IMG/VR virus record: IMGVR_UViG_3300046777_002520
Span: 64,001-128,000 of that record
Reading direction: 5' to 3' (one strand)
Source of the DNA: a virus
DNA: 64,000 nucleotides
Under the pieces are notes generated by a model. The model was not told the origin of the DNA and did not search any database. It saw only the letters and a list, made by a program, of their open reading frames with translations. Shown piece after piece: positions 28,978 to 64,000 of this stretch. Position numbers and translations under genes: made by a program. Within the stretch, counting starts at the first letter, position 1. Each line of letters starts with the position of its first letter.

Positions 28978-30003
28978 ATGTTTAACCCAATTCTTAGCGA
29001 TAAGACAATCGTCAAGCTGAGCCAGGCTTACGACAGCATGGCTTACAACCTGGGCGAGGCCGCCGCGCTGCTGAAAGAGGCAGCCGTTAAGACACACGCC
29101 CTGTCTGGCGAGCTGTACGGCTCCTCCAAGGGAGCCTTGCTTCTCAGCGTGCCCAACTCTCTGGTGCGAGGAGCCTTCTCAGCCCTCGATGAGAACGGCC
29201 TGGTGCTGCCCAACCAGGGCAAGTTCAACGCTCACATTATCGTCATGACGCCTGAAGAGGTGTCCAAGATCGGCGGCTTGACCAAGGTCACCGAGCGCGG
29301 CAAGCACTTCCACTATAATCTGGGACCCTTGCACGAAGGACCAGTCACCAACTCCTTTGACTTCAGCAAGGTCTGGTTTCTGTCCGTGACGAGCCCAGAG
29401 CTGGCCCAGCTCAGAAAGACGTACGGGCTGGACAGCGGACCTGGCAAGCACGGCTTCAACATCGTGGTGGCGTTGCGCAAGCTGGGCGTGCTGGGAAGAA
29501 ACGAGATCAGCAAGCTGGCTGGTGCGGATGTCCTGCCAGGCGGCAAGGCTGACGACCTGCCTGACTCCAAGTTCGACAAGAAGAAGCTGGAGCACGCGCA
29601 GAAGCATGAGATGGAACACACCAACAATCCTGCCATAGCCAAGGAAGTCGCCAAAGACCATATGGTCGAGGACCAGGATTATTACCCAAAGGTGGAAGTC
29701 ATGGAAAAGAACAAGGCAGCGGACAAGCTAATGGGCTTGCTCGCCAAGAAAGCATATGTCGGGAACGGTACGAGGCAGGAGTCAGATGCCGAAGTCGTCA
29801 CGCCTGCTGCGGAAGATATTGCTTTCCTTGGCAGTAAGCCTTCAAAGCCCGAGCCAAAGCCAGTCGATAACAACAAGAACAAAGCCAGTATTCGTAAAGC
29901 GTTTATTGAAGCGACGAAGGATACTGTTGGAGTGGACCCGTCTTTGAAGTCAGCTTCGTGGAACGAAGTTCTGCAAAAGCTGAAGGAGCTTGGCAAAAGC
30001 TGA
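28978..30003 (+). CDS. 2H-phosphoesterase-like domain + DUF5661-like module, with K-x-A motifs
   Basis: GAGG before ATG 28978. NAHIIVM...VWFLSVTSPELAQLRKTYGL...FNIVVALR resembles a 2H fold with degenerate motifs. LPGGKADD...HEMEHTNNPAIAKEVAKDHMVEDQDYY recalls DUF5661. Confidence 0.55.
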   Translation: MFNPILSDKTIVKLSQAYDSMAYNLGEAAALLKEAAVKTHALSGELYGSSKGALLLSVPNSLVRGAFSALDENGLVLPNQGKFNAHIIVMTPEEVSKIGGLTKVTERGKHFHYNLGPLHEGPVTNSFDFSKVWFLSVTSPELAQLRKTYGLDSGPGKHGFNIVVALRKLGVLGRNEISKLAGADVLPGGKADDLPDSKFDKKKLEHAQKHEMEHTNNPAIAKEVAKDHMVEDQDYYPKVEVMEKNKAADKLMGLLAKKAYVGNGTRQESDAEVVTPAAEDIAFLGSKPSKPEPKPVDNNKNKASIRKAFIEATKDTVGVDPSLKSASWNEVLQKLKELGKS

Positions 30004-30028
30004 TTGAACTCTTTAAGAGGTAGACACC

Positions 30029-30469
30029 ATGATCACTCTTTCAGACGTTCGACAGAAATCTCAATACGACTGCGGTATTGTTGCCGTCAAGGTTCTGCTC
30101 AGAGCCTTGGGTAAGCGCTTGACTCCAGAGAACACCAAAGCTCTAGCTACCACGCCCATAGACGGCACGGACCCACGTGCCATCGAGGCTCTGCTAAGGA
30201 AACTGGGTTTACACGTACTCTCTGGAGAGATGACGTGGAACGACCTTGTTTACTTCACGCAGACAAGGCCTGTTATCTGTTTAATAACATATGCTGGCGT
30301 AGGGCATTGGGTTGTAGCTTCTGGTATAAAAGATGGAAAGATGCACTATCAGGACCCAAGTGAGGGTCCACTGTATGTGGGGAAAAAGAAATGGCATGAA
30401 ATGTGGCGCGACATAGACCGATTAGGTGCCGTCTATAGGCAATGGGGAATAACAGCTTGGCGCAACTAA
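30029..30469 (+). CDS. C39-like cysteine peptidase
   Basis: RQKSQYDCG (Gln, Cys), GHWVV (His), YQDPS (Asp). Confidence 0.8.
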   Translation: MITLSDVRQKSQYDCGIVAVKVLLRALGKRLTPENTKALATTPIDGTDPRAIEALLRKLGLHVLSGEMTWNDLVYFTQTRPVICLITYAGVGHWVVASGIKDGKMHYQDPSEGPLYVGKKKWHEMWRDIDRLGAVYRQWGITAWRN

Positions 30470-30483
30470 TGGAGGTGCCAGCG

Positions 30484-31931: not shown

Positions 31932-31933
31932 TT

Positions 31934-37305: not shown

Positions 37306-37662
37306 ATGGATAATCCTTTGAATATGGGAAGTGTCATCGAGAAAGTCGCTGAAAAGCACCCAGATTTACAAACACTTCTGCTGGCCAAAGAGCTGTCAGA
37401 CAAGAAGAAATACATTCAGAAGAATGAGCTGCTTCGGCATCTGCTGCATAAGGCCCCAAATGACTTCGCTGTCTCAGAGCCTGACAACGGTGGGATAGTG
37501 GGAATTTCCCACCTGCCCACCAACTTCAGAATCCACACGCTTACCAGAAACCTGCCAGAGTCGCTCAAGCAAGCCTGCGAAGAGTTGACTGAGAAGCATC
37601 TGCTGAAGGAAGCAGCTGCCACTCGCATCGCTTACTTGATGGAAACAGAAACATGGAACTGA
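37306..37662 (+). CDS. Hypothetical protein with K-x-A motifs
   Basis: 118 aa; EKVA near the N-terminus, LKEAA near the C-terminus. Confidence 0.65.
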   Translation: MDNPLNMGSVIEKVAEKHPDLQTLLLAKELSDKKKYIQKNELLRHLLHKAPNDFAVSEPDNGGIVGISHLPTNFRIHTLTRNLPESLKQACEELTEKHLLKEAAATRIAYLMETETWN

Positions 37663-38690
37663 CTTACGCCAACCTGCCACAGCGCGTCAAGGAAGCAGCC
37701 AAAGAGCTGCTTCCAACCTATCTGGGAATTCGCAAGCACATGGATGCTTACGACAGCCCTGTGTGGATCAACGCGGACAACATCAAGGCTGCCTACCACA
37801 CAGAGTTCCACAGCACGGCTGACAAGCTGCAGCAGCTGGGCTTACCTGTAGGCCAGAGAGACACACGCCTCCCTGAAGGGAACTGGGTGTTCGTCAAGAA
37901 GGCTGACCCTGTGCTGATGTCGGATGTGTTAGGCAAGATCCCCAAGATAATGAACCTGGCTCCTAACTCGTTCAATAAGCATCTGGGCGAGTTTGGAACC
38001 AGTCCTCTGTTCAGTATGCTTACAAGCGGTTTACTGGGTGGGGGTTTAGGGTATATGGGTGGAGCTCTGGCTGAGCAGTTGCTGCCAGAGCAGTACCTTG
38101 AGCGAGGAAAGCTCCGAAAGACGTTGGGAACGCTTGGGGCTCTGGCTGGCGCAGCAGGTCCAGCCTACCTTGGCACAATCGGACACAGAAACTGGGAAGA
38201 CCCCAATCGCAGCGCCTGGAACTCGTGGATAGAGCCCAACGTCCTCTTCGGGCAGCAGAAGAAGGCCATTGATCTGGGCTTAGCCAATATCCGTAAGGTC
38301 ATGGCAAGCAGCGAGGGCTTACTGAAGGAAGCCTTTGATGATGGCATCACTGCGGGTCCAGGAATGCTGCCTATCATGCCTCATATTCCTGTCGATGCGT
38401 TCAATCGCTCGATCATGGCTGATCCCTATGCGCCTTTACCCATACAGACAGCTGCTGTGGGAGTGATAGAGGCAGCGAATCAGGCAAAAGGAAATTCTGG
38501 CCTCATTTCCCCTTTCGACATCGCTCGCATAGGTGTAGGAATGGGTGCAGGTCTGTCTCAGGCCTATATCGGGGGCAAGGTACTAGGCGCTTTGGCAGGG
38601 CTTACGCCTCAGGCACAGCAGACATTGCAGCAGGCAGGTATGTTCGCTGGAGCACTCAAGGCAGTCGTGCCAGGTTTATTCGGAAGGTAG
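37653..38690 (+). CDS. Putative virion protein with glycine-zipper hydrophobic segments
   Basis: GLLGGGLGYMGG, GTLGALAGAAG, GMGAGL...GGKVLGALAG; KEAA, KKAD, KKAI, KEAF. Confidence 0.7.
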   Translation: MELTYANLPQRVKEAAKELLPTYLGIRKHMDAYDSPVWINADNIKAAYHTEFHSTADKLQQLGLPVGQRDTRLPEGNWVFVKKADPVLMSDVLGKIPKIMNLAPNSFNKHLGEFGTSPLFSMLTSGLLGGGLGYMGGALAEQLLPEQYLERGKLRKTLGTLGALAGAAGPAYLGTIGHRNWEDPNRSAWNSWIEPNVLFGQQKKAIDLGLANIRKVMASSEGLLKEAFDDGITAGPGMLPIMPHIPVDAFNRSIMADPYAPLPIQTAAVGVIEAANQAKGNSGLISPFDIARIGVGMGAGLSQAYIGGKVLGALAGLTPQAQQTLQQAGMFAGALKAVVPGLFGR

Positions 38691-38696
38691 GCTCGA

Positions 38697-39986
38697 ATGT
38701 CTGTGTATGGGAACTACGACATGTGGTGGCGAGAAGACGGACGCGACGCTGACCCCAGAATAGACATCAGCTCGCAGCCACCTCATCAGGACATGAGGGC
38801 TCACAACACGTTAGACGCACGCCAAATAGAGATCGACAGAAGGCGCGAGTTGCTTACCAGAGCCTACATAGAGCTGTCCACGCCCAGACCTGGCACCAAC
38901 AGAGGTCCGTCAGCAGAACTCACGGAGGCTTACAGAGAGGCAATAGCCCAGCTGGGTCGATATGTCAGCATTGATGGGCTTACAAGGAACGAGACTGTGC
39001 AAAATCAATTTTACGCTGATAACTTTTTCGAACGTGACGGCTCGAATTTTTACTACGAGCTGGTGCTGTCAAACAGGACAATCAGCAATATACAGAAAGA
39101 TACTAACCTTACATATAATCAACTATCTTCCTATGCCAGAAGAAAGATAGAGAGAAAAATAGAAAGTCTTTATGCAGAAAACTCAGAATCAATTCTGACC
39201 AAGATCGAAGCCATGCGTCTGCTGCTCCTCATCATCGCGGACACACGCTCATTCTTTAACAGCACAGCTTATGACGAACCTCGCTATATAACTCCTAATT
39301 CCTGGATGTGCTACGTCTCGGGCCTAAGAGCACTTGCCTTCCTAGAGACTATCGCCCAGTTACTTGTAATAGCAAGAACCACCTATGCCAACGACATAGG
39401 TGTTTACCTAGATGAGGAGCTGGAGTTTTTGGCTTATGAACTAGAAGACGCCATGGAGATGGTAAAGCACAAGCTTTACCTCATGGAGGAAAACAATCTG
39501 GCCTTTAGACCCAATAGACTCGTTAACAGCAATCAGAGCGCCCCATTCCATTTCTTTGAGAGAGACACGCGACTGACGTGGATAGAGCAGAGGATAATGC
39601 CTCATCTTAACGCCAGTACGCTAAACGGAGCAAACCACTATGACACGTTCCCATCGTTTAGGACCCCAGTGACAGAGAGGGTTGAGGAGCGTGCTCCTCT
39701 TCCTGTGACGACATGGGAAGTGCTTACAGATGCTGAGAGCAGAGGAAGGGGATTGGGCTTACGGGTAAACGGTGTGACGCTTAGAGGGATTACTGGGTTT
39801 ACATTCGACTCAGAGCCAGGAGGAGTGACAAGGCTGTCTATACAAGCGCTTATCGTTCCTGGTCAAAGTACCCTTAGCTTTTCTAGCCAGTTATCTGATA
39901 CTATACAGACTACGGAGGGCAACGCTCTGCCAGTTGATACTGACAGAGTGCAGAGTGGACCTAATGAGCGGTTTATCGATCTATAA
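38697..39986 (+). CDS. Hypothetical protein with atypical AT-richer codon usage
   Basis: 429-aa ORF; no recognisable motif. Confidence 0.6.
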   Translation: MSVYGNYDMWWREDGRDADPRIDISSQPPHQDMRAHNTLDARQIEIDRRRELLTRAYIELSTPRPGTNRGPSAELTEAYREAIAQLGRYVSIDGLTRNETVQNQFYADNFFERDGSNFYYELVLSNRTISNIQKDTNLTYNQLSSYARRKIERKIESLYAENSESILTKIEAMRLLLLIIADTRSFFNSTAYDEPRYITPNSWMCYVSGLRALAFLETIAQLLVIARTTYANDIGVYLDEELEFLAYELEDAMEMVKHKLYLMEENNLAFRPNRLVNSNQSAPFHFFERDTRLTWIEQRIMPHLNASTLNGANHYDTFPSFRTPVTERVEERAPLPVTTWEVLTDAESRGRGLGLRVNGVTLRGITGFTFDSEPGGVTRLSIQALIVPGQSTLSFSSQLSDTIQTTEGNALPVDTDRVQSGPNERFIDL

Positions 39987-39998
39987 GAAAGGAAGACC

Positions 39999-40361
39999 AT
40001 GAGTCAGGACATCGTTAAGAACAATGGCTTGTTTACTTTCCGTGATCTGAAGTATTGGGCTCAGGACGGAATGGTTTACATCGTCGATGAGAGAGATGGA
40101 GAGATAAAGCACGAAGCCCCGATGACCATGAGATATAGAGCGCTGTCCTTTGCGCGTGAGGCAGATAGCATGAAGGACAGTGGTGGACATTATGCTAGTG
40201 ACCGCAAGGAATTGCTTACAGCTGCTAGGAATCTGATGCAGGTTGTGCAGACCGCTGAGATGCAGGGCTGCCCCATGGACCCGCGAGTTCTGCAGCAGCA
40301 GGTGGAAGAAAGAAAGAGGGTTTACGTTTCTCTGTCAGGGTTGAACATACCCACGAGGTAA
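39999..40361 (+). CDS. Hypothetical protein
   Basis: AAAGGA RBS; 120 aa. Confidence 0.7.
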   Translation: MSQDIVKNNGLFTFRDLKYWAQDGMVYIVDERDGEIKHEAPMTMRYRALSFAREADSMKDSGGHYASDRKELLTAARNLMQVVQTAEMQGCPMDPRVLQQQVEERKRVYVSLSGLNIPTR

Positions 40362-40363
40362 TC

Positions 40364-41217: not shown

Positions 41218-41220
41218 CAC

Positions 41221-42075: not shown

Positions 42076-42090
42076 GATCGGGGTTTAGCG

Positions 42091-48518: not shown

Positions 48519-48521
48519 TCC

Positions 48522-48743: not shown

Positions 48744-48745
48744 CC

Positions 48746-51759: not shown

Positions 51760-51771
51760 AGGCTGCGTAGC

Positions 51772-54210: not shown

Positions 54211-54222
54211 GAAACTGTACAA

Positions 54223-54254
54223 AACCTCGGTACTTGTGAATAAGTACCGAGGTT
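54223..54254. terminator. Intergenic 13-bp hairpin (terminator or processing/regulatory site)
   Basis: AACCTCGGTACTT-gtgaat-AAGTACCGAGGTT; A-run on the 5' side, weak U-tail on the plus strand. Confidence 0.55.
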
Positions 54255-54267
54255 ATGTAGGTGCAGC

Positions 54268-54633
54268 ATGAACGCCAGAATACAACTCATCAAAGCCGTG
54301 CTGGCCGCAGGCACTGAGAAGTCCGCTCAGAACCTGCAGCAAACCCTTGCCAAGGCAGCAGCCTGCTGGAAGGGCTACGAGCGCGTCCCTGGCACCAAGG
54401 CTATGACACCTGGCTCATGCAGGCCCGTCGGTGAGGGCAAGGACAAAAAGAAAAAAGAAAAGAAGGCGTTCATCAACAGCGCGCGTGAGGCTCTGGGCAA
54501 GTATGTGCAGGAGAAGACTGATCCTGCCAGCTACATCAATACCGACAACCTTGAAGCCATTCTCAAGCACTACTCCAAGGTCAAGCCCCAGCTGCTCAGG
54601 CTTTTGCAGGAAGAGCAGGAGCTAGAGCAGTGA
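54268..54633 (+). CDS. Small virion-type protein with CWKGY...C module
   Basis: EKSA, AKAA-A-CWKGYERVPGTKAMTPGSC, EKKA. Confidence 0.65.
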   Translation: MNARIQLIKAVLAAGTEKSAQNLQQTLAKAAACWKGYERVPGTKAMTPGSCRPVGEGKDKKKKEKKAFINSAREALGKYVQEKTDPASYINTDNLEAILKHYSKVKPQLLRLLQEEQELEQ

Positions 54634-54634
54634 T

Positions 54635-56113
54635 ATGAGCAAACCAGACCTCAACCTGGCTTTGCGCTATCTGGAGCATAAACAGGCTGCCATCAATCCC
54701 GATGTCACGCCTCAGGAACACCAACAGCGTGTGGCTGACAGGCTGTCTGGGGCCAACCCCAGGCTGCTTGTCTACCACGGTCTAGGCACGGGCAAGTCCC
54801 TTGCCTCCATTCTTGCGGCTGAGCAGGCTGGCGGCGATTATGGCATAGTCGCCCCAGCCGCTTTGCGCCAGAACTTCAACAAGGAAATCGAGAAGTTCAC
54901 GGAAGGCAGCAACCCTGAGGTGATGTCCTACACGGGTCTCGGCATGGGCAAGCAGTTTGCCAAGCAGCCAGAGACGCTGATCGTGGACGAGGCGCATAGG
55001 CTGCGCAATCCGTCTGGCAAGGCCAACAAGGCCATCGCGGACCAAGCTGCCAAAGCCAAGCGCCTGATGCTGCTGACAGGCTCACCCATCGTCAACTCGC
55101 CCACAGACCTGGCGGCTCCCATCAGCCTGCTCAACAACATCAACTTGTCTCCAGAGAAGTTTGAAGAGGACTTCATCGACTACAAGAAGGTCAACCCTGG
55201 CTTCTTCGCCAGTCTGCGTGGCGTGACGGCTGGAGAGAAGCCAGCCATCAAGAACGAGGCCAGGCTGCGCGAGCTGCTCAAGGGTAAGGTCGATTACCAG
55301 CCCAGCAAGACTCCAGAGGGCGTCTCCGTCAACGAGGAGATCGTCGATGCGCCCATGTCTGCGGACCAGGAGCGCATTCAGAACGCCATTCGCAAAAAGA
55401 TCCCTCTCAAGTTCCTGTGGAAGCTCGACAAGGAGTTCCCCCTGTCCAGAAACGAGATCACCAAGCTGAACGCTTTTCTGTCAGGCCTCAGGCAGGTGTC
55501 TCTGTCCACGCAGCCGTTTCGGGCTGACAAGGACCCCCTCAAGTCGTTCGAGCAGTCTGGTAAGCTGACCACGGCCATGAACAAGCTCAAGGACTTGCTG
55601 GCGTCTGATCCGCGTAAGAAAGCAATCATCTACTCCAACTTCGTGCAGTCAGGTCTGGACCCTTACGCTGCAGCCCTGGCCAAGGAAAAGATACCGTACG
55701 GCTACTTCCATGGCGGTATCAGCGAAGCGGATAGGAAGAAAGCTGTAGACGAGTATAATGCAGGTAAGCTCAAGGCTCTATTGATTGGACCAGCTGGTGC
55801 AGAGGGTTTAAGCACCAAGGGAACAAGTCTTATACAGCTTTTGGACCCTTACTGGAATGAGACTAGGTCTAACCAGGCACAAGGCAGGGGTTTACGCTTT
55901 GATTCCCATATAGGTTTACCTGAAGAACTTAAAGACGTTAAAGTACAGAAGTTTATCAGCAAGGGTCAGCAGCCTTCCACATTGATGCGATGGCTCGGTG
56001 CCAAACCAGTCAGGACAGGCGATGAGATGCTGCAGTCTATGGCTGCATCCAAGGAAGAGCTGAACGAGCGCTTCAAGAAGCTGCTGCAGGAAGAGGGGTC
56101 CAAGCGTGAATAA
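54635..56113 (+). CDS. Superfamily 2 (SNF2-like) helicase/ATPase
   Basis: HGLGTGKS (Walker A), IVDEAHRLRN, LTGSP..N, GAEGL, DPYWN, QAQGRGLR..SH. Confidence 0.9.
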   Translation: MSKPDLNLALRYLEHKQAAINPDVTPQEHQQRVADRLSGANPRLLVYHGLGTGKSLASILAAEQAGGDYGIVAPAALRQNFNKEIEKFTEGSNPEVMSYTGLGMGKQFAKQPETLIVDEAHRLRNPSGKANKAIADQAAKAKRLMLLTGSPIVNSPTDLAAPISLLNNINLSPEKFEEDFIDYKKVNPGFFASLRGVTAGEKPAIKNEARLRELLKGKVDYQPSKTPEGVSVNEEIVDAPMSADQERIQNAIRKKIPLKFLWKLDKEFPLSRNEITKLNAFLSGLRQVSLSTQPFRADKDPLKSFEQSGKLTTAMNKLKDLLASDPRKKAIIYSNFVQSGLDPYAAALAKEKIPYGYFHGGISEADRKKAVDEYNAGKLKALLIGPAGAEGLSTKGTSLIQLLDPYWNETRSNQAQGRGLRFDSHIGLPEELKDVKVQKFISKGQQPSTLMRWLGAKPVRTGDEMLQSMAASKEELNERFKKLLQEEGSKRE

Positions 56114-56768
56114 CATAGAGAAAATAGCCAAGCTGGCAGCGAACAGGGCTTACCCTTTGCTGAAACGTGCCAACTTTGGTGAGAGCGTATTCGAGTGGGG
56201 CAAGGCCCAGACGGCTCCTGGCCAGCTGCAGAAGCAGCTGGAAAGCTTCAATCTGCCCAAGAACCAGATGTTCATGTCGATGATGGCCCAGAATGCTATG
56301 CCTCTGTTTGAGGCTGCAGGCAACGTCGGAGGGCTGCCAGCCATCGCTGGGCTTTTGGACATGTTCAGGGGTGGCGGTAACATCGGCATGTTGCTGCGAG
56401 GCAAGGACAACTCCAGCCCGTTGGCGCTGCTGCGTTCCTCAACAGCTGCCGATCCCGAGGCTGTCTTTGATCCCCAGCAGCTGCAGAAAGCCATGCAGCC
56501 CAACGTCAACCTGACGCCTCCAGCCGCTCCTGGCGTGGTAACGCCTCCCCCTCCTCCTGCTGCCCCAGTCCAGCAGCAGCCTGCCCCAGCGCCTGCACCT
56601 ACTCCTCCACCTGTGCCTGCTCCAGTCCCTGCCCCAGCGCCACCAGCACTAAAGCCTGCTACTAACCAAAGCAAGCCATTACAGCCGTATACCAATATTC
56701 AACAGGTACCTCCAAAGATCACTGCGTCTAAGCCCATTGATTCGATGCAGCAAGTGAAGCCATTCTGA
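56106..56768 (+). CDS. Hypothetical protein with Pro/Ala-rich C-terminus
   Basis: EKIA, KLAA and LKRA leader; PAPAP linker. Confidence 0.65.
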   Translation: MNNIEKIAKLAANRAYPLLKRANFGESVFEWGKAQTAPGQLQKQLESFNLPKNQMFMSMMAQNAMPLFEAAGNVGGLPAIAGLLDMFRGGGNIGMLLRGKDNSSPLALLRSSTAADPEAVFDPQQLQKAMQPNVNLTPPAAPGVVTPPPPPAAPVQQQPAPAPAPTPPPVPAPVPAPAPPALKPATNQSKPLQPYTNIQQVPPKITASKPIDSMQQVKPF

Positions 56769-56843
56769 TCTGTCGAATATGGACAGGGCTTAGCGTTACT
56801 GATAGAGTTTTAAATAGAGCTCATACAAACATAGGTGTTTAAC

Positions 56844-57482
56844 ATGGCAGAAAAACGTGCTTTCCTTGAGACGTTTAACTCACTGTCACCCCAGATGAAA
56901 GGCGCGCTTATCGGCGGCTTGGTGGGCGCAGGCGGCGCTGCTCTGTTTGGCAAGCGCAAGAACATGCTTCAGAACATGTTGATGTTCGGAGGCTTGGGCG
57001 CTGCAGGCGGTTACGGCTTGGGGCATCTCTATAGAAGTATGCAGCCCAACATTCCTGGACTGGGTGGCGTGGCGAAAGGCGTCAACGCTGCTGCAGGCAC
57101 AGCCAGCAAGGTGTTGCCAGCTGCTGCCACAGCCGTGCCAGCAGCCATGATGGGCAACATGACTCCAGCCATGAACACAGCCAAGGGCGTGATGAGTGGC
57201 GCTGCCGACCTGGGCAGAAACATCACCTCAGGCGTTTCTTCGATGATTCCAGCAGCCAGCGACGCCTCCAAGTGGATGGGCAGAGCCATCAGCGCTGGCA
57301 AGATTCAAAACGCTTACAACACAGCAACTAACGCTATCAGCAACCAGCAAGCCAAGGGGCCAGCAGGTAGAGCTGCAGCCGCTGTCAAGAACGCGCCTCC
57401 AATGCACACTCCTGTCCAATCCTGGGCAAACGAGGCCTACCGTCCGACAAACTCGCACGCAGCTCCAGGGTATCTCGACTAA
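56844..57482 (+). CDS. Putative virion protein with glycine-zipper hairpin
   Basis: AGGTG RBS; MAEKRA leader; GALIGGLVGAGG...KRK...GGLGAAGGYGLG. Confidence 0.7.
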   Translation: MAEKRAFLETFNSLSPQMKGALIGGLVGAGGAALFGKRKNMLQNMLMFGGLGAAGGYGLGHLYRSMQPNIPGLGGVAKGVNAAAGTASKVLPAAATAVPAAMMGNMTPAMNTAKGVMSGAADLGRNITSGVSSMIPAASDASKWMGRAISAGKIQNAYNTATNAISNQQAKGPAGRAAAAVKNAPPMHTPVQSWANEAYRPTNSHAAPGYLD

Positions 57483-57499
57483 CCAGAGAGGTCCGACTC

Positions 57500-59956
57500 A
57501 TGCTTTCCAAGAACACACGTCAGCAGCTTGAAGAATGCCGCAAACTGATGCGCGACCACTCTCCGCTTGAGAAGCTGGCTGCTCTGGGTGGCGACGGCAA
57601 CGACAGCCAGTTCGAGCAGTCGTTCTCGAACCTCGCCCACGCTTTCATCAAGGACAAGGCCCCCTCGCTGCTCGACTACGAGGTCGGCTTTCAGCTGATG
57701 GACCGCAATGACGACAACACCAAGGCTGTCGGCATCTTCGGTTTCAAGGTCGGCGGTCAGTGGCTCTATGCTCCCGTGTTCTTCCTGAACGGCGACATGA
57801 AGGGCACCGAGCTGCTGTACCTCAAGGACCAGGACCAGTTCGTGCCCCTGAAGGAGAACTGGCTGAACTACATTCTGCAGCGCAAGCCCAACGTCATGGG
57901 CTCGGAGACGGGCCGCAACCTGCAGCAGCTGGGCGTGCTGTCTCCCGACCTGCAGGCTTTCTCCCGTCCTCCTGCCAAGTTCGCCTCGGCAGGCGGCATG
58001 GAAGCTGGCGAGTCCGCTTTCGCTTACTTCGCCACCAGCAACCCCCTGTCCGACGACAAGTACAAGGATGTGCGCACGCTGCCTGAGTTCCTGAAGGAAG
58101 CGGGCCTGAGCACCGTCAAGTCGCTGATTCAGGGCATGGAGGCTTACCCTGCCGTCGCTGAGGCCGTCGAGAAGATCTACGGCAAGGAGACGATCAAGCA
58201 GGCCATCGCCGCAGCTGCTGCCAACGAGAAGGAAGCTGGCAAGAAGGTGCGCTGGATCAAGCAGAAGGAATACGGCCGTCAGGAGGACGAGGACGATTCT
58301 CCCCAGAAGCCCAAGGGCGTGCTGGAAGCCTACAACGGCAGCGTCGAAAACAAGATCATGCGCGAGAAGGCCTCGGCCATCGCCATTCTTACCGTTAAGA
58401 CCGTCGTCCAGCGCGGCATCGGCTTCGAGCCCACCGACAAGGAACTGGAAGACATCGCCACCGAGGGTGTGTCGATTCGCGACGAGCGCCCCGACGCCTC
58501 GGTTGCCTACGAGGTCCAGACGCCCCTGAACCTCACAAACCCTCCAGAGACCGGGGTTTACGACATACTGTGCAAGCCCAGCGCCTTCTGCAAGGGCCTG
58601 GTCATCGTCGGTCCCCAAGGCCCCAAGGGCACGGTCGGCTTCTCCACTGTCATCGACCTCGACGACAAGAAGTGGACCAATTTGCACCAGGCCCACGTCT
58701 GGACTCGCGAGCGTGGCGTGCAGGAAGACGAGCTGCGCAAGCTGCACGACGAGCTGCCCGAGCTGACGCCTGCCTCTTTGAAAGAAGACGGGCTGTATGT
58801 CATCGTGGGCGGCAACCGTGAGGGCACGCTGCCCTTCAGGGTCAAGGAAGTCTGCGACAAGGACGACGCCTGCTCCAGCTTCAAGGTGGACTTCATGGAC
58901 TACGCTGGCGCTCCGCGTCCAGCGAACCTGCCCAAGCTAAACAGTAAGGAAACTTATTGGGGCTACGGCTCTGATGCCCATCCTTACGGCTGCGGCTGCT
59001 CGGCTATTCTGCACCTGACCAACAAGACAGGCGGCAGAATGCGCAACATGCACAACGAGCTGTATGTGCCCCAGGGTTACAAGGTTATCAAGATCGACGA
59101 GAAGGCCGACGAGTACGGCCACATGGACAGGGGCGAGAAGCCTGCCATTCAGTACGGCAACCTGCTGGATGTCCAGAAGGCTGTTTACGAGAAGACGGCT
59201 GGGCTGGAAGTGCGCCACACCGGTTCCGTGGTCAACATCAACGGCAGGGACTTCGACAAGGTCGCCGCCGTCGTGCATCTGGTCCAGGACTGGATGCTGC
59301 GCGAGGGTCAGGCCAAGGCGATAGTAAAAGCCGCCTCCGACAAGAAGGCGGTCAGATACCGTGTCGCCTTCCCAGAAGGCTACGAGTCGATCATCAAGGT
59401 CGCCGCCCCTGGCGACATGATGGACCCGAGAATGGTAGCGACCACAGGCGCTCCTCCGTTCCCGTCGCCTCCCAGCGGTCTGGAGCAGACGATGCTGGGC
59501 AGCGTCCAGTCGATCTATCCGCAGCAGGAAGCCCTGCCCGTCATGCCCTCCTCGGTCAACCTGGTCGGCAACGAGCAGGTTTACGACCCCAGACTGCCCG
59601 ATCCCAAGACCATGGCGCTCGGCTATCAAGCCGCCCAGTCCGGTCAGAAGGAAGTGTTTGACACCAGCATGGTCGGCTCGCTGCTCAAGAACGTGCGCAG
59701 CGACTCCATGGTGGACAAGTACCTGGGCGATCTGATGAAGGGCATGGACCGCATCGGACGCATTCTCTTCTCGTTCTACTGGCACGGCGAGGAGATGCAG
59801 GACCGCTACGGCAAGAAGGACATGCCCGAACTGGAAGAGTCGCTGCGCAACGCCTTCGAGGCTGTCGGTGACGTGGTGCTGTTCCTGAAGCAGAAGACCG
59901 TGGAGCCGTTCCCCGAGGAAGGCTTCAACTCAGACCTGTCCGACACCGCTGGCTGA
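57500..59956 (+). CDS. Large hypothetical protein (818 aa) with K-x-A motifs
   Basis: Long ORF with strongly biased, GC-rich codon usage like the RNAP genes; EKLA, KFAS, EKTA, KVAA. Confidence 0.8.
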   Translation: MLSKNTRQQLEECRKLMRDHSPLEKLAALGGDGNDSQFEQSFSNLAHAFIKDKAPSLLDYEVGFQLMDRNDDNTKAVGIFGFKVGGQWLYAPVFFLNGDMKGTELLYLKDQDQFVPLKENWLNYILQRKPNVMGSETGRNLQQLGVLSPDLQAFSRPPAKFASAGGMEAGESAFAYFATSNPLSDDKYKDVRTLPEFLKEAGLSTVKSLIQGMEAYPAVAEAVEKIYGKETIKQAIAAAAANEKEAGKKVRWIKQKEYGRQEDEDDSPQKPKGVLEAYNGSVENKIMREKASAIAILTVKTVVQRGIGFEPTDKELEDIATEGVSIRDERPDASVAYEVQTPLNLTNPPETGVYDILCKPSAFCKGLVIVGPQGPKGTVGFSTVIDLDDKKWTNLHQAHVWTRERGVQEDELRKLHDELPELTPASLKEDGLYVIVGGNREGTLPFRVKEVCDKDDACSSFKVDFMDYAGAPRPANLPKLNSKETYWGYGSDAHPYGCGCSAILHLTNKTGGRMRNMHNELYVPQGYKVIKIDEKADEYGHMDRGEKPAIQYGNLLDVQKAVYEKTAGLEVRHTGSVVNINGRDFDKVAAVVHLVQDWMLREGQAKAIVKAASDKKAVRYRVAFPEGYESIIKVAAPGDMMDPRMVATTGAPPFPSPPSGLEQTMLGSVQSIYPQQEALPVMPSSVNLVGNEQVYDPRLPDPKTMALGYQAAQSGQKEVFDTSMVGSLLKNVRSDSMVDKYLGDLMKGMDRIGRILFSFYWHGEEMQDRYGKKDMPELEESLRNAFEAVGDVVLFLKQKTVEPFPEEGFNSDLSDTAG

Positions 59957-59968
59957 TAGGAGTTTACG

Positions 59969-60409
59969 ATGCGTATCTACGAAAGACGTCTTTGCAGCCT
60001 GTCTGCTCCGCTGGGTCAAACCACCTGCTGGCAGATCGGCTTTCCACCCGAAGCGTCCATCAAGCGTGTGATTGTCAAGCAGACGGGCGGCACCGCTGCC
60101 AACTTCAAGATCATCGTTTTCAACGCGCTGCACGCCTGCCAGCCAGGAACCAGCTCGGACGGTGATCCTGACGGACCTTCGGGACCGCTGAAATGCGTTT
60201 CCGACCCCGACCTGTACGTGGTGTTCCCAGAGACGAGCGGCACGTCGGGCGAGCTGCTGCAGATCTCTGACAGCGTCGGTCGCTCCTTCCGCAACCAGGA
60301 CGGCACATACACGCTGCCCGTGCGCAAGATTTATCTTCAGATCACACCAGAAGGCAGCGGCGACGCTACCTGGGACGTGCTCATTGGCGGGGATACGGAC
60401 GTCAGCTGA
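59969..60409 (+). CDS. Beta-rich hypothetical protein
   Basis: AGGAG RBS; 146 aa. Confidence 0.7.
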   Translation: MRIYERRLCSLSAPLGQTTCWQIGFPPEASIKRVIVKQTGGTAANFKIIVFNALHACQPGTSSDGDPDGPSGPLKCVSDPDLYVVFPETSGTSGELLQISDSVGRSFRNQDGTYTLPVRKIYLQITPEGSGDATWDVLIGGDTDVS

Positions 60410-61368
60410 TGCTTGTAAACCTCACGCGGGACAATCCGCAACGGCCTCCAGATTGGCGTTGGCTCAAGGCTTCCAAGTACACGGACGCAAACCGTGTCAT
60501 ACCAAGAAGCCACAGAGACAGGCATATCTGGGAGGCCGTTGAGTTTGCGCAGCGGCTGCGGGATCTTCCCACCAACCAGGAGGAAGCCGCTTTTGAGATG
60601 GTCGGACTGTCTGTGGACTTTCCAGAAATCTCACAGGCTTACGACATCTACGACAACACGGGACCAAACGGATTCAGATGGGAGCTGGAAGCAAGAATAC
60701 TGGCTAATGAGTCGTTTGAGGAGATATCCAAGAAGTCCAGTACTTCTGTAGCTGTTCTGGAAACATACGAGAACCTGTTCTTTAACGTATTGGATCGGCT
60801 TGAAGCTTGGACATGGGTTCTTAACTGCGTCATAGGTCGGTCAGTACACGCTGGTATGACCGAAAGAGACTATGACCTTCTATGGAAGTTGTATGGCTAC
60901 GTAGGTGGTCCTTTCTTTGTAGACATTCTGACTAACAAGACAGGTATGCACGAGAAAGTCAAACCTAAATCAATACAAGAAGCCCTTAATATGATGCGCG
61001 ATTCTACTGAAACTAACGCTACTGTTGTGGCAGCAAAAGGGTTTACTCTTACTCCTGTCAACAGTTTTACTATTGCTGGTTTAATTGCAATAGAGCAAAA
61101 CTATAGACAGATAACCAAGGAGTCTGCTGGTATCTCTGCTGCTCAGAATTGGCTGCAGCTGGCTGGCTCTGTTATGTCGCGTTTGCCACACTGTTCTGGA
61201 AATGATAAGATAAACCAACCTGTGTTGAATGCGCTAAGAGAAAAGTATGACAATACACCTGCTGAGTTGAGAGCACACGAAGCTATCTTAGTGGCTAATG
61301 GAGAAACGCTACAAGGTATTGAAAACGAAAGGCTACCAGAGCCAGAGGCTAAAGATGGCAATGAGTAG
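60409..61368 (+). CDS. Hypothetical protein
   Basis: TGATG overlap; 319 aa. Confidence 0.7.
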   Translation: MLVNLTRDNPQRPPDWRWLKASKYTDANRVIPRSHRDRHIWEAVEFAQRLRDLPTNQEEAAFEMVGLSVDFPEISQAYDIYDNTGPNGFRWELEARILANESFEEISKKSSTSVAVLETYENLFFNVLDRLEAWTWVLNCVIGRSVHAGMTERDYDLLWKLYGYVGGPFFVDILTNKTGMHEKVKPKSIQEALNMMRDSTETNATVVAAKGFTLTPVNSFTIAGLIAIEQNYRQITKESAGISAAQNWLQLAGSVMSRLPHCSGNDKINQPVLNALREKYDNTPAELRAHEAILVANGETLQGIENERLPEPEAKDGNE

Positions 61369-62761
61369 GTTGAGCAAACAAGCCGAGCAGCGTCTGACCG
61401 AGGCCCTTGAGAAAGTGGCCACGTTGGTGTCTGAGGGAGAACATCCCAACGATGCCATTGTCAAAGTCGCCAGCGACGGTGGCATTCCAGCAGGTCACGT
61501 CAACCTGATGGTCACGGCCTTCAACACGGGCCGCACTGAGACGCAGCGCAAGATCGGCCAGGACATCTTCGAGAAGTCTGCCGAGTTTGATCTCGCTGAC
61601 GCCGAAGAGATCCTCAACCGAATGTACCCCAAGGAAGTGAAGTCGGCAGCCGCAGCACGGCTGTCGTCTGTCGTTTCCGAGGAGTATGCAGCGCCGCCCA
61701 CGTGGCATCGCGACAGCATCAAGAAGGCCACCTTCAACCAGGAGCTGCCTCCCCTGACCACCAGGGCTGGCACCGTGGTCAAGAGCGTGGAGCCTCTGCC
61801 TGCCGATCCCGTGCTGGCGATGAAGAAGGCCCACTGCCAGGCAGCCGACACCCGTCGCGAGCTGGAGAACCGCCGCGCCGAGGTCTCCAACCTGCAGGAC
61901 AACCTGATCAGCTCGATCACCAAGCTGGCCGAGTACTTCCGTCAGCCTGGCTGCGAGCCGTACCTGGGCGTGAAGGGCAACATGGTGCGCCTGTTCGACA
62001 AGAAGGCGTCCGCTCTGTTCAAGATGCTGGAAACCCGCAATCCCAGGCTGATCAAGCAGGCTGGCGACGGCAGCGAGTTCTACTCGCTGGTCAACTTCCA
62101 GAAGGAGCCGTACGCTCTGGTGCGCAAGTGCCTGACCGAGGCCGAGGTCCTGGTCGAGAAGCAGGCCTCCTTCAACGAGTTCGAGAAGCAGGCCAAGGCG
62201 CAGATCGAGGAAAAGCTGCTCCCTTTTGCCCAAAGCCAGGACCCATCAAGAACACCTGGGGTCCTGGCGTCTGTTGAGAAGACCGCAGCCGATCTGTTCG
62301 GCCTGGCTTCTCCGTTCAGCGCCTCCAGCACCATGCTGGGCTTTGACTCGGCTGCCGACAGGCTCAACAAGGCCATCGGTGCCGAGATTGCCGAATCCCA
62401 GCTTGGGACCAAGCAGAAAGCTCTTGGCAAGGTCATGAGCGAGCTGGAAGACCCCAAGCACATCGGCAAGCTGCGCAATCTGCAGGCTTCGTCGCTGCTG
62501 ACAGGGCTTATGGCCAACGATGACGTCATCAGCGGTTACGACCCTGAGGAAGTCATGGGCCACTACAACGAGCTGAGCCAGATCGCTCCGCGAGCCGCCC
62601 TGCATGAGGGCATCATGCGCGCCATGCTGCGACGCAGGCTGGCTGGCGGCAGCAGCGCCATTGATCCGTACGAGATCGGTGAGGTTCTCAAGTTCGAGAA
62701 CCAGCTCAAGGAGCGCGACACCGATCCTTACAAGAAGAAATCCCCTCCTGGCGTCATCTGA
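61361..62761 (+). CDS. Helical hypothetical protein very rich in K-x-A motifs (start 61355 or 61361)
   Basis: KQAE, KVAT, KVAS, KSAE, KSAA, KLAE, KQAG, KQAS, KQAK, KTAA. Confidence 0.75.
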   Translation: MSRLSKQAEQRLTEALEKVATLVSEGEHPNDAIVKVASDGGIPAGHVNLMVTAFNTGRTETQRKIGQDIFEKSAEFDLADAEEILNRMYPKEVKSAAAARLSSVVSEEYAAPPTWHRDSIKKATFNQELPPLTTRAGTVVKSVEPLPADPVLAMKKAHCQAADTRRELENRRAEVSNLQDNLISSITKLAEYFRQPGCEPYLGVKGNMVRLFDKKASALFKMLETRNPRLIKQAGDGSEFYSLVNFQKEPYALVRKCLTEAEVLVEKQASFNEFEKQAKAQIEEKLLPFAQSQDPSRTPGVLASVEKTAADLFGLASPFSASSTMLGFDSAADRLNKAIGAEIAESQLGTKQKALGKVMSELEDPKHIGKLRNLQASSLLTGLMANDDVISGYDPEEVMGHYNELSQIAPRAALHEGIMRAMLRRRLAGGSSAIDPYEIGEVLKFENQLKERDTDPYKKKSPPGVI

Positions 62762-62773
62762 GTAGGAGCTGTC

Positions 62774-64000
62774 ATGGACCTCGAAAAAGTTGCTTCCGAA
62801 CTGGCTCAAAAGGCTGTTGCCGTCCGTAACTCTGACACGCGACTGGCTCCTGGCGAATACCCAGCCTGGGCCTCTGAGTTCAAAAAGCTGGCCGAGGAGC
62901 ACTACGCCGAGCTCGGCCTGGCCAAGGAAGCAGCTGGCGAGGACTACAACCCGTACAGCCGCTACGACCAGGCTGTGCAGGGCAATGAGGTCCTGTCCAA
63001 CCCTCTGGTGCGCAACGCGCTGGTGACTGGCGGTCTTGGCGCGGGTGTCGGCGCTCTGGGCTCGCTGGCGTCTAATCTCCTGTCCAAAAAGAGGAAAAAG
63101 CGCTATCTGTCTGACGCTCTGTCGGCTGGCCTGATGGGCGGCTTGGCAGGCGGTGTGGGTGGCGCTGGTTACACAGCTTTGACCGACAACAAGGCCACCA
63201 ACGATCTTGTCGGGCAGGTCAGCAAGGCTTTGGGTGGCACCAAGCCGCCTCCAGCCAACCGTAACGCTGCTCTGGAAGGCGAGAGAGCCGCCATCGAAGA
63301 CAAGACCATGGGTCAACTTAACCCAGCGCTTGCTAAGGCTCAAACATTCGGCAATATGGCAGCCGCAGGCGTGGGCCTCAAAAAGCCTGTGACTGCTTTG
63401 GGTAAAGGATTGGCAACTGGTCAATTCACCACGACGGCTGACACAGCCAAAATGCTCAGCCACGCTGAGCAGCAGCTGAACGCTTTCAGAGACTCGCTGG
63501 CTGATAGCAGCAAAAAAGGTTTGCCGACAGGCAACAGGCAAGCGATATTCAATGACTTTTTGAAAGAACACAATCTTGTTGATACCAATGGCGTTATCAA
63601 GGTCAAAGACCCCAGACACCTGTCAGCTGCGCTGCAGGATCTTAAAAATCTAAACTCAAGAACAGAGGCACCGCCAACGCCTATACCCCCTGCAGCACCA
63701 AGCGCCTCAGGCAGAAGACTAAGTAAACCAATCGACACCAATACTTTGCTGCACAATATCATGGGGACAAACGCTTCCCCCACTTCGGCTACCCTGACCA
63801 CAGGAGCTAGTCCTGGTGTTCTGCAGTCGTTCAGCAACCCTGAGCTGGCTGCACGCAGACTCAACGCTATGACTAGAGGCGGTGCCTTGAGCGCCGCTGA
63901 AGCGGCTAATTTTATAAACCAAGGCTATGCAAAGCCTTCTCCTGCACTCGTTTCATTGTCCAACAACCCTCCTGGCGCTAAAAGCTACAGATTTTATGAT
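62774..64000 (+). CDS. Glycine-zipper hairpin protein, 3'-truncated (absent from ORF track)
   Basis: AGGAG RBS, ATG 62774, open to the window end. MDLEKVAS...KKLA...AKEAA, then GGLGAGVGALG...KKRKKR...GLMGGLAGGVGGAG. Confidence 0.8.
   Translation, partial: MDLEKVASELAQKAVAVRNSDTRLAPGEYPAWASEFKKLAEEHYAELGLAKEAAGEDYNPYSRYDQAVQGNEVLSNPLVRNALVTGGLGAGVGALGSLASNLLSKKRKKRYLSDALSAGLMGGLAGGVGGAGYTALTDNKATNDLVGQVSKALGGTKPPPANRNAALEGERAAIEDKTMGQLNPALAKAQTFGNMAAAGVGLKKPVTALGKGLATGQFTTTADTAKMLSHAEQQLNAFRDSLADSSKKGLPTGNRQAIFNDFLKEHNLVDTNGVIKVKDPRHLSAALQDLKNLNSRTEAPPTPIPPAAPSASGRRLSKPIDTNTLLHNIMGTNASPTSATLTTGASPGVLQSFSNPELAARRLNAMTRGGALSAAEAANFINQGYAKPSPALVSLSNNPPGAKSYRFYD

What the first reader, a model, noticed from the sequence alone, without database searches (positions are those of the whole stretch)
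28978..64000. Recurrent K-x-A motif delimits leaders and modules in about 16 proteins: a candidate new virion polyprotein/propeptide processing code
Seen in sequence: many unrelated-looking ORFs carry [E/hydrophobic]-K-x-A-[A/S/G/F] either at the end of a short N-terminal helical leader or immediately before a discrete module. Leader examples are IKQA|GLM (50650), EKRA|FLE (56844), AKRA|FVP (47739), EKKA|IIG (40364), LKRA|NFG (56106), HKQA|AIN (helicase) and EKLA|ALG (57500). Module examples are EKKA|SPAWQ (DUF6321-like), KMAA|SKPGLWANIH, AKAA|ACWKGY and SKLA|GADVLPGG (DUF5661-like). ORF 61361 has about ten copies. Established knowledge: T4 gp21 cleaves internal head proteins after (I/L)-x-E, phiKZ gp175 after (S/A/G)-x-E, poxviruses at AG|X and ASFV at GG|X. 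Inference: K-x-A is this phage group's maturation-protease site, with the leaders acting as capsid-targeting propeptides. From memory (unverified), the CWKGY and DUF6321-like mini-modules follow Glu sites in T4-like phages, which would mean the same cargo sits behind a different cleavage code.
Basis: partly seen in the sequence, partly recalled or inferred. Interest (0 to 1): 0.85.

Follow-up and report, generated by a model that had tools for sequence, protein, structure and literature searches.

The report
Lys-x-Ala head-protease cleavage motif
The capsid-assembly and capsid-packaged proteins of this uncultured ~192-kb phage, and of its cultured relatives Salmonella phage Arash and Vibrio phage D69, share a conserved Lys-x-Ala signal at leader ends, between mini-domains and along scaffold proteins; it is most likely the cutting site of the phage's own capsid-maturation protease, a new specificity for a well-known enzyme type that still needs mass spectrometry to prove.

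Summary
The signal belongs to the head module, window 37306 to about 5.6 kb past the window end.

There, K.A ranks second or third of 1,600 gapped pairs. It ranks first in the head modules of phages Arash and D69. Among residue pairs conserved in orthologs it stands alone (26 vs 3.5 expected, z 12.8). Consensus: hydrophobic-(Glu/Val)-Lys-x-Ala-(Ser/Ala/Gly).

Nine of 20 alignable proteins keep one within residues 1-45, including the capsid protein, an SNF2 helicase and the protease.

The gene just past the window folds like the T4 gp21/herpesvirus assemblin protease (Z 9.9). It carries invariant K-x-A at residues 37-39 and in its disordered linker (241-243).

Two mini-modules (GLWANIH-type, DUF6321) are flanked by K-x-A here. 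In T4-like phages, hydrophobic-x-Glu sits in the same register.

Arash virion proteomics places the homologous RNA polymerase subunits and helicase in particles.

Best reading (about 0.7): a prohead-protease code with P3 Lys and P1 Ala. No cleavage has been shown, and the capsid-targeting role of the leaders is untested. The scan found the same code before on other DNA (e1-5347414, e1-5742009).

The parts
37306..64000 (+). Module of capsid-packaged and head-assembly genes. It continues about 5.6 kb past the window end (genome 128321-133587) with the protease, scaffold-like proteins and major capsid protein.
   Evidence: Synteny with Arash gp206-gp226. The Arash homologs are detected in virions (PMC10585845). 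K.A is enriched only in this gene set.
40364..40876 (+). 170-aa protein with conserved K-x-A at aa 8-10 (nt 40385-40393), 30-32 (nt 40451-40459) and 42-44 (nt 40487-40495).
   Evidence: K and A kept in 5/6, 6/6 and 4/6 orthologs.
42091..46551 (+). Multisubunit RNA polymerase beta-like subunit (homolog of virion protein Arash gp206). Conserved K97-K-A99 at nt 42379-42387.
   Evidence: PHROG RNA polymerase hits. 30% identity to Arash gp206. The site is kept in 8/8 orthologs with x varying, and a matching site sits at aa 61 of the Arash and D69 homologs. The total count is not enriched (10 vs 9).
47739..48518 (+). 259-aa protein with a 20-aa leader ending in K18-R-A20 (nt 47790-47798), followed by a Pro/Gly-rich stretch.
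   Evidence: K and A kept in 8/8 orthologs; x is R, Q, N, S or D.
48746..50653 (+). RNA polymerase beta'-like subunit (homolog of virion protein Arash gp216). It has no conserved K-x-A.
50650..51759 (+). 369-aa protein with K9-A-A11 and K17-Q-A19 (nt 50698-50706) ahead of a Gly-rich hydrophobic segment.
   Evidence: Only one weak ortholog was found, so conservation is untested.
51772..54210 (+). 812-aa multi-module protein. A Cys-rich stretch (aa 538-558) comes first, then a GLWANIH-type module (aa 562-603, nt 53455-53580) and a DUF6321 module (aa 687-769, nt 53830-54078). Both modules are bracketed by K-x-A at aa 559, 604, 684 and 770 (nt 53446-53454, 53581-53589, 53821-53829, 54079-54087).
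   Evidence: Pfam DUF6321 E 1.2e-14. PHROG families of 50-141 aa match single modules. In relatives the modules are reordered or sit in other ORFs, yet they are still flanked by K-x-A.
54268..54633 (+). 121-aa protein with K18-S-A20 and K29-A-A31 (nt 54352-54360) directly before a Cys-Trp-Lys-Gly-Tyr module.
   Evidence: In L005 the same module follows K-E-A inside a concatenated multi-module protein.
54635..56113 (+). SNF2-family helicase with an 18-aa leader ending in K16-Q-A18 (nt 54680-54688).
   Evidence: Pfam Helicase_C and SNF2-rel_dom. The site is kept in 6/6 orthologs. The Arash homolog gp217 aligns from our residue 22 and has no leader.
56106..56768 (+). 220-aa protein with K-x-A at aa 6, 9 and 20-22 (nt 56163-56171).
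   Evidence: Orthologs are too few and too partial for a conservation test.
56835..57482 (+). 215-aa protein with K-R-A at aa 7-9 (nt 56853-56861) before a Gly-zipper-like segment.
57500..59956 (+). 818-aa virion protein (homolog of Arash structural protein gp218). Its leader ends at K25-L-A27 (nt 57572-57580). Further conserved sites lie at aa 160, 199, 233, 565 and 633.
   Evidence: 11 K.A vs 5.2 expected. Sites 25, 160 and 633 are kept in 9/9 orthologs and site 565 in 8/9.
61361..62761 (+). Scaffold-like protein with 13 K-x-A (homolog of Arash gp220, which has 10).
   Evidence: 13 vs 4.1 expected, no shuffle of 5,000 reaches it. Seven sites are kept in at least 75% of orthologs. Arash gp220.
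62774..64000 (+). 5' part of a 515-aa protein with K-x-A at aa 5, 38 and 51. It is the last gene before the protease.

Best explanation
K-x-A is most likely the P3-P2-P1 recognition motif of this lineage's own prohead (capsid-maturation) serine protease. The fuller consensus is Leu/Phe, then Glu/Val, then Lys, x, Ala, followed by Ser/Ala/Gly/Glu. The protease is the 486-aa product of genome 128321-129781, 321 nt past the window end.

Inferred steps, by analogy with T4 gp21 and phiKZ gp175:
1. Inside the procapsid the enzyme cuts after the Ala.
2. It removes N-terminal leaders of 8-37 residues from the major capsid protein, from itself and from several packaged proteins. These include the SNF2 helicase and the products of ORFs 40364, 47739 and 57500.
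3. It releases small modules (GLWANIH-type, DUF6321, the Cys-Trp-Lys-Gly-Tyr module) from multi-module precursors such as ORF 51772.
4. It chops the scaffold-like proteins and its own C-terminal half into short peptides.

Shown here: the motif, its enrichment, its conservation, its positions, the protease fold, and the equal register with hydrophobic-x-Glu in T4-like phages. Inferred: that the motif is cut, that the cut falls after Ala, and that this protease does it.
For: (1) Unbiased motif scans. K.A ranks second or third of 1,600 gapped pairs in the head module (109 vs 67 without the RNA polymerase subunits and helicase, z 5.8). It is not in the top ten in two control gene sets of the same genome. 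It ranks first in the head modules of Arash (46 vs 21) and Vibrio phage D69 (51 vs 22), whose capsid proteins are only 32% identical to ours.

(2) Conservation. Among conserved residue pairs, K.A gives 26 vs 3.5 expected (z 12.8), with the next pattern at z 5.7. Thirty-nine sites in 13 proteins are kept in at least 75% of orthologs while x varies. Lys is almost never replaced by Arg.

(3) Position. Nine of 20 alignable proteins keep a site within aa 1-45; the next-best pattern occurs in 3. The capsid-protein site at aa 26-28 aligns with the Arash site at aa 27-29.

(4) Periodicity. The constrained positions are -4, -2 and 0. That is the spacing of an extended strand in a protease cleft, and the same P3-x-P1 layout as T4 and phiKZ sites (established knowledge).

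(5) The enzyme. The N-domain model (pLDDT 79) matches T4 gp21 at Z 9.9 over 142 residues, and varicella-zoster and cytomegalovirus proteases at Z 7.2 and 5.1. It also matches phage G gp19 and many annotated prohead proteases. His60, His101 and Ser163 are invariant in 82 sequences. K37 is invariant and A39 nearly so. K241 and A243 are invariant and lie in the low-confidence linker 233-249 that ends the catalytic domain.

(6) Module junctions. The GLWANIH and DUF6321 modules keep flanking K-x-A even when reordered in relatives. Of 132 GLWANIH copies, 70 have K-x-A with Ala 4-5 residues before the module, 30 have hydrophobic-x-Glu at the same distance, and 9 start a protein there. In T4-like cyanophage DUF6321 proteins, 54 of 66 contexts have hydrophobic-x-Glu in the place where this clade has K-x-A.

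(7) Packaging. Arash virion mass spectrometry finds the homologous RNA polymerase subunits, helicase and gp218-224 in particles.
Against: - No peptide-level data exist. The Arash supplement holds only a gene table.
- The motif also occurs, conserved, inside folded domains where cutting seems unlikely. Examples are RNA polymerase aa 859 and five sites in the protease core. At best the motif is necessary, not sufficient.
- Some relatives lack K-x-A at a module junction (L012, L015).
- Pfam models of prohead proteases S77 and S78 do not match anywhere in the genome, and a sequence search of solved structures finds nothing.
- The phage G capsid protein has no K-x-A.
Confidence: 0.7

Rival explanations
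1. K-x-A is a short docking motif that is bound but not cut. For example, it could be the contact by which scaffold and cargo proteins hold on to the capsid interior, the portal or the protease's C-terminal domain.
For: The motif is densest in scaffold-like proteins. It is conserved inside folded domains where cutting is unlikely. Nothing here shows a cut.
Against: A docking motif does not explain why the motif brackets shuffled mini-modules. It does not explain the shared register with the known T4 cleavage motif, or with the natural N-termini of free-standing modules. It does not explain the site in the disordered linker at the end of the protease domain.
Confidence: 0.15
2. The pattern is a by-product of Lys- and Ala-rich amphipathic helices in scaffold and internal proteins, with no specific reader.
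For: The carriers are rich in Lys, Ala and Glu and are largely helical.
Against: Only K.A stands out among 1,600 pairs, and it does so in three distant phages. Arg hardly ever replaces Lys. The constrained positions have a spacing of two, not three or four. The conservation z of 12.8 is far above any other pair. Sites also occur in Pro/Gly-rich, non-helical contexts such as ORF 47739.
Confidence: 0.05
3. The motif is cut, but by another enzyme: a host protease or a second phage protease, rather than the assemblin-fold protein beside the capsid gene.
For: The link between enzyme and motif is only by gene context and analogy. Precedent from my own knowledge: staphylococcal phage 80alpha head proteins are trimmed by a host protease.
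Against: The motif follows the phage lineage across hosts as different as Salmonella, Vibrio and freshwater metagenome hosts. The protease carries invariant copies of it at both ends of its catalytic domain. No other protease candidate was seen in the head module.
Confidence: 0.07

Closest known systems
Phage T4 prohead protease gp21, its (Leu/Ile)-x-Glu sites and the capsid-targeting leaders of internal proteins
   Same: It has the same fold (Z 9.9) and the same P3-x-P1 layout of the motif. A site lies near the N-terminus of the capsid protein, many sites lie in scaffold proteins, and sites lie in the protease itself. Short N-terminal leaders on packaged proteins end in the motif. DUF6321 and GLWANIH modules sit behind the T4-type motif in T4-like phages in the same register.
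   Different: P1 is Ala and P3 is Lys, instead of Glu and Leu/Ile. There is no Pfam S77 match. The protease is fused to a long helical C-terminal region. The leaders differ in sequence from one another, so no single shared targeting tag is evident.
phiKZ gp175 and SPN3US gp245, which cut after (Ser/Ala/Gly)-x-Glu or Ala-x-Glu in giant phages that package a virion RNA polymerase
   Same: The head carries many packaged proteins, including split multisubunit RNA polymerase subunits and a helicase. Processing there removes N-terminal propeptides, and the protease cuts itself (PMC10052503).
   Different: P1 here is Ala, not Glu. The genome is smaller (192 kb). The capsid protein is 310 aa with a leader of about 28 aa rather than a long propeptide. 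The lineage is different (nearest cultured relatives are Arash and D69).
Herpesvirus assemblin, whose maturation and release sites follow (Val/Leu/Ile)-x-Ala then Ser
   Same: Related fold (varicella-zoster protease Z 7.2, cytomegalovirus 5.1). The inferred P1 is Ala, with Ser or Ala most common at P1'. The site consensus is from my own knowledge.
   Different: P3 is Lys, not an aliphatic residue. There are dozens of sites in many substrates, rather than two in the scaffold precursor.
HK97 gp4 prohead protease (Pfam Peptidase_S78)
   Same: A prohead serine protease next to the capsid gene; from my own knowledge it digests itself. BFVD neighbours of our model include annotated COG3740 head-maturation proteases.
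   Different: There is no S78 match. Substrates here go far beyond the capsid protein's own delta domain.

Membership tests
Prohead serine protease of the T4 gp21 / HK97 gp4 / herpesvirus assemblin fold | Assemblin-like fold of the catalytic domain | tested here: met
   The model of aa 1-270 (pLDDT 79, pTM 0.75) matches T4 gp21 5jbl at Z 9.9, rmsd 3.8, with 142 of 165 residues aligned. The next match is varicella-zoster protease at Z 7.2. The top three Foldseek PDB hits are 5jbl, though weak (E 0.03). BFVD gives 94 hits at E <= 0.001, including annotated prohead proteases.
Prohead serine protease of the T4 gp21 / HK97 gp4 / herpesvirus assemblin fold | Catalytic Ser and His conserved | tested here: inconclusive
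   Ser163, His60 and His101 are invariant in 82 sequences. I could not map them residue by residue onto the catalytic positions of gp21.
Prohead serine protease of the T4 gp21 / HK97 gp4 / herpesvirus assemblin fold | Match to the curated sequence models (Pfam S77, S78) | tested here: not met
   No match in the whole genome at E <= 1. No Pfam hit for the protein at E <= 0.1. None of the 120 listed homologs, out of 1,234 found, carries a protease Pfam domain. It is therefore related by fold, not a member of those sequence families.
Prohead serine protease of the T4 gp21 / HK97 gp4 / herpesvirus assemblin fold | Gene sits with the scaffold and major capsid genes | tested here: met
   Gene order: protease (genome 128321), two scaffold-like genes, capsid protein (genome 132188), then the tail sheath further on. 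Arash and D69 have the same order.
Prohead serine protease of the T4 gp21 / HK97 gp4 / herpesvirus assemblin fold | Proteolytic activity on head proteins | not testable with these tools
   This needs virion N-terminomics or an in vitro assay.
T4-type head processing code (P3-x-P1 motif shared by capsid protein, scaffold, protease and leader-bearing cargo) | One short motif recurs in the capsid protein N-terminus, scaffold proteins, the protease and the N-terminal leaders of packaged proteins | tested here: met
T4-type head processing code (P3-x-P1 motif shared by capsid protein, scaffold, protease and leader-bearing cargo) | P1 is Glu | tested here: not met
   The conserved positions are Lys and Ala. 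This is the point of difference: it works like the T4 code but with another specificity.
T4-type head processing code (P3-x-P1 motif shared by capsid protein, scaffold, protease and leader-bearing cargo) | Leaders direct cargo into the procapsid | not tested
   The only hint goes against a strict requirement: the Arash helicase lacks the leader yet is in virions.
DUF6321 (Pfam PF19846) | Match above the curated cut-off | tested here: met
   ORF 51772 aa 695-762, 55.1 bits against a cut-off of 28.5, E 1.2e-14.

The most novel reading that the evidence does not exclude
Protease specificity and hundreds of substrate junctions have been recoded together. The same pool of exchangeable 40-80-residue mini-modules (GLWANIH-type, DUF6321, the Cys-Trp-Lys-Gly-Tyr module, DUF5661, a Cys-rich unit) is strung into polyproteins. 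The head protease then releases them inside the capsid as free small proteins for delivery into the host. The junctions read hydrophobic-x-Glu in T4-like phages and Lys-x-Ala in this large clade, in the same register. That would make these modules a widespread class of injected phage mini-proteins, and the clade a natural experiment in the co-evolution of a protease and its whole substrate set.
Probability: 0.35. Interest if true: 0.8.

Novelty: new variant of a known kind. Interest (0 to 1): 0.66.

Why it matters
Prohead-protease codes are known by experiment for only a few phage groups: T4, the phiKZ/SPN3US group and HK97. All the well-defined multi-substrate codes cut after Glu.

A Lys-x-Ala code would be a new specificity for the assemblin-fold protease. 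It would resemble herpesvirus proteases at P1 and P1'. It would apply to a very common but barely studied lineage: 1,234 protease homologs in metagenomes with no Pfam family.

If true, it gives an immediate rule for predicting mature virion proteins, propeptides and released mini-proteins in these genomes. It can be tested directly, because two relatives (Salmonella phage Arash, Vibrio phage D69) are in culture.

The equal register of K-x-A and hydrophobic-x-Glu in front of the same modules also points to a shared, portable set of capsid-delivered mini-proteins of unknown function.

Tried and rejected
It was nearly null and at first suggested chance. I rejected it as the wrong gene set once the head module was defined.
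- **Pfam prohead-protease models.** S78 and S77 gave no hit over the whole genome.
- **Pfam and PHROGs on head genes.** They were almost empty, apart from weak hits for the capsid protein, tail sheath and the C-terminal part of a maturation protease.
- **Profile search of solved-structure sequences with the protease alignment.** Nothing relevant came back.
- **First fold of the protease with a 10-sequence alignment.** The catalytic domain was unreliable (pLDDT below 50). I repeated it with 82 sequences.
- **Arash paper supplement.** It holds a gene table only, with no peptide list, so leader removal could not be checked.
- **Literature.** I found no report of a Lys-x-Ala prohead code. The phage G structure paper is not in the library, and the phage G genome paper gives no cleavage sites.
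- **Phage G as an outlying user of the code.** The protease gp19 has 8 K.A vs 2.4 expected and the portal has a site at aa 18, but the capsid protein has none. I left this open.
- **Nearest DNA relatives in the phage collection.** They share only the DUF6321 stretch.
- **Related loci via the RNA polymerase gene.** Few turned up, so I fetched regions from the large contigs instead.
- **Complex prediction.** Not used, because the tool's own guidance rates enzyme-substrate pairs as low-yield.

Full report
**What the window is.** The window is bases 64001-128000 of a 191,966-bp IMG/VR phage contig that CheckV rates 93% complete. From about 37.3 kb onwards nearly all genes are on the + strand. They include two multisubunit RNA polymerase beta/beta'-like genes (42091-46551 and 48746-50653), an SNF2 helicase (54635-56113) and many proteins of no known family. 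Directly after the window come a 486-aa protein, two scaffold-like proteins, a 310-aa major capsid protein and then a tail sheath. The nearest cultured relatives are Salmonella phage Arash and Vibrio phages D69, D181 and D148. Their capsid proteins are 32% identical to ours and gene order is the same. In Arash, virion mass spectrometry found the RNA polymerase beta subunit gp206 (the most spectra of all proteins), beta' gp216, helicase gp217 and gp218-224 in particles (PMC10585845).

**Is the motif more than chance?** My first test said almost no. Over ORFs 28879-64000 there are 102 K.A against 84.8 +/- 7.9 in composition-preserving shuffles. The count is 78 against 75 once ORF 61361 (13 vs 4.1) and ORF 57500 (11 vs 5.2) are removed. 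That test used the wrong gene set. It included about 8 kb of unrelated genes and lacked the head genes beyond the window end.

An unbiased scan of all 1,600 residue pairs at spacings 1-4 gave a different picture. Over the module (window 37306 to genome 134000), K.A ranks second or third: 124 vs 84, or 109 vs 67 without the RNA polymerase subunits and helicase (z 4.9-5.8). It is absent from the top ten in two control sets of the same genome. The same scan puts K.A first in Arash gp218-226 (46 vs 21, with L.K second) and first in D69 genes 266-275 (51 vs 22, with K..S second). D69 control genes show nothing. The three logos agree: hydrophobic, Glu or Val, Lys, x, Ala, then Ser or Ala.

**Conservation.** Twelve related loci at 38-90% identity, plus regions from five large contigs, gave 20 ortholog alignments.
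- In the first 14 alignments, pairs with both residues conserved in at least 85% of orthologs give K.A 26 vs 3.5 expected (z 12.8). The next pattern has z 5.7.
- Lys and Ala inside K.A are conserved more often than other Lys and Ala (45% vs 29%, and 49% vs 24%).
- Thirty-nine sites in 13 proteins are kept in at least 75% of orthologs while the middle residue varies freely.
- Lys is almost never replaced by Arg.
- Nine of the 20 proteins keep a site within residues 1-45. They are ORFs 40364, 47739, 54635, 57500 and 61361, the protease, a scaffold-like protein, the capsid protein and the 142-aa protein after it. The next-best pattern occurs in three proteins.
- The capsid-protein site (aa 26-28) aligns with the Arash site (aa 27-29), and D69 has the same site.

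**The enzyme.** The 486-aa protein just past the window has a highly conserved N-terminal half and 1,234 homologs in metagenomes. None of the 120 listed homologs carries a protease Pfam domain. A first fold with 10 sequences failed for this half. With 82 sequences the model of aa 1-270 reached pLDDT 79. An exhaustive structural comparison puts the T4 gp21 capsid assembly protease first (Z 9.9, 142 residues). Varicella-zoster and cytomegalovirus proteases follow at Z 7.2 and 5.1. Foldseek agrees weakly on PDB and strongly on predicted viral structures, which include phage G gp19 and many annotated prohead proteases. His60, His101 and Ser163 are invariant.

The protein carries 16 K.A. K37 is invariant and A39 nearly so. 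K241 and A243 are invariant and lie in the only low-confidence stretch (233-249), the linker that ends the catalytic domain. The Arash and D69 homologs have sites at matching places. This is the pattern expected of a self-processing prohead protease fused to a scaffold-like tail.

**Module junctions and the register argument.** In ORF 51772 the GLWANIH-type module (aa 562-603) and the DUF6321 module (aa 687-769) are each bracketed by K-x-A. In relatives the same modules are reordered, concatenated with the Cys-Trp-Lys-Gly-Tyr module, or placed in other ORFs. K-x-A still sits at most junctions, though two relatives lack some.

In 66 distinct contexts from T4-like cyanophage-type DUF6321 proteins, 53 have Glu three residues before the module's Ala-Trp, and 41 of these have a hydrophobic residue two places earlier. 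Another 13 have the same motif shifted by one. Only 2 have K.A. In our clade Lys and Ala occupy exactly those two places.

The GLWANIH module has 761 representative homologs. Among 132 copies in the best 150, 70 have K-x-A with the Ala 4-5 residues before the module. Thirty have hydrophobic-x-Glu at the same distance, and 9 begin a protein at that point. So K-x-A stands where the established T4 cleavage motif stands, and a cut after Ala would give the same N-terminus as the free-standing modules. This is the strongest indirect evidence that the motif is cut, and that the cut falls after Ala.

**How it most likely works.** The constrained positions (-4, -2, 0) have the spacing of an extended strand, and the P3-x-P1 layout matches T4 and phiKZ sites. 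I infer that the protease binds the motif as a strand, with Lys in S3 and Ala in S1, and cuts after Ala. That would trim leaders, release mini-modules and degrade scaffold proteins and itself.

The motif cannot be sufficient on its own. Conserved copies lie inside folded domains, for example RNA polymerase aa 859 and the protease core.

The leaders' role in capsid targeting remains open. They differ from one another. The Arash helicase has stop codons just upstream of its start, so it truly lacks a leader, yet it is in virions.

**Comparison and novelty.** The system works like T4 gp21 with its sites and leaders, and like phiKZ gp175 and SPN3US gp245 in phages that package an RNA polymerase (PMC10052503). 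The differences are P1 Ala and P3 Lys instead of Glu and an aliphatic or small residue, and no match to the curated S77 and S78 models. P1 Ala with P1' Ser or Ala recalls herpesvirus assemblin sites (my own knowledge), although P3 differs. I found no report of such a code. I rate it a new variant of a known kind.

The scan has reached the same reading before on other DNA: e1-5347414, a ~190-kb lineage with the same cultured relatives, and e1-5742009. I saw these notes only after my own tests, and they are not independent evidence.

**Limits.** Nothing here shows a cut. Gene starts were taken as the longest ORF, so leader lengths may be off by a few residues. Several carriers (ORFs 50650, 56106, 56835) have too few orthologs for a conservation test.

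Noticed in passing
window 41221-42075, 50650-51759, 51772-54210, 56835-57482, 62774-64000: Several packaged-module proteins carry Gly-rich hydrophobic, glycine-zipper-like segments soon after the leader. This suggests membrane-inserting ejected proteins. Arash gp4 has similar tracts.
   Followed up: no
window 53383-53445 (ORF 51772 aa 538-558): A Cys-rich unit of about 20 residues sits directly before the K-x-A that precedes the GLWANIH module. The same Cys-Gly-Cys-Lys ending precedes the site in at least six distinct metagenomic homologs.
   Followed up: partly
L033:1175-1621 (Synechococcus phage S-MbCM7) and proteins P0121-P0242: In T4-like cyanophage-type DUF6321 proteins the module is almost always preceded by hydrophobic-x-Glu, the T4 gp21 motif. 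These small proteins are therefore probably head-processed cargo in T4-like phages too.
   Followed up: yes
window 53434-53607 and proteins P0243-P0392: The GLWANIH-type module has 761 representative homologs at 50% clustering. It occurs at N-terminal, internal and C-terminal places in proteins of 51 to 1,329 residues, so it is a very mobile mini-domain of unknown function.
   Followed up: partly
L017:8841-9743 (Bacillus phage G gp19) and L017:4337-6283 (portal): Phage G's protease homolog has 8 K.A against 2.4 expected, including sites near aa 43 and in its C-terminal tail. The portal has one at aa 18, but the capsid protein has none. The code may reach this far.
   Followed up: partly
genome 46038-47963 (about 18 kb before the window start): The portal homolog (27% identical to Arash gp204) lies far from the head module. 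In Arash and D69 it sits just upstream of the RNA polymerase beta gene.
   Followed up: no
L001:2321-3781 (genome 128321-129781): The protease family has 1,234 homologs in metagenomes on contigs of up to about 227 kb, and no Pfam family for its catalytic domain. It is a candidate for a new curated family.
   Followed up: partly
window 28879-30003: This ORF joins a 2H phosphoesterase domain to a DUF5661 module, outside the head module. DUF5661 co-occurs with DUF6321 in some metagenomic proteins (P0183, P0219), so it may belong to the same pool of mini-modules.
   Followed up: no
window 54635-54697 vs L016:21262-22680: Our helicase has an N-terminal extension of about 20 residues ending in K-Q-A. 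Arash gp217 lacks it: there are stop codons in frame just upstream of its start.
   Followed up: yes
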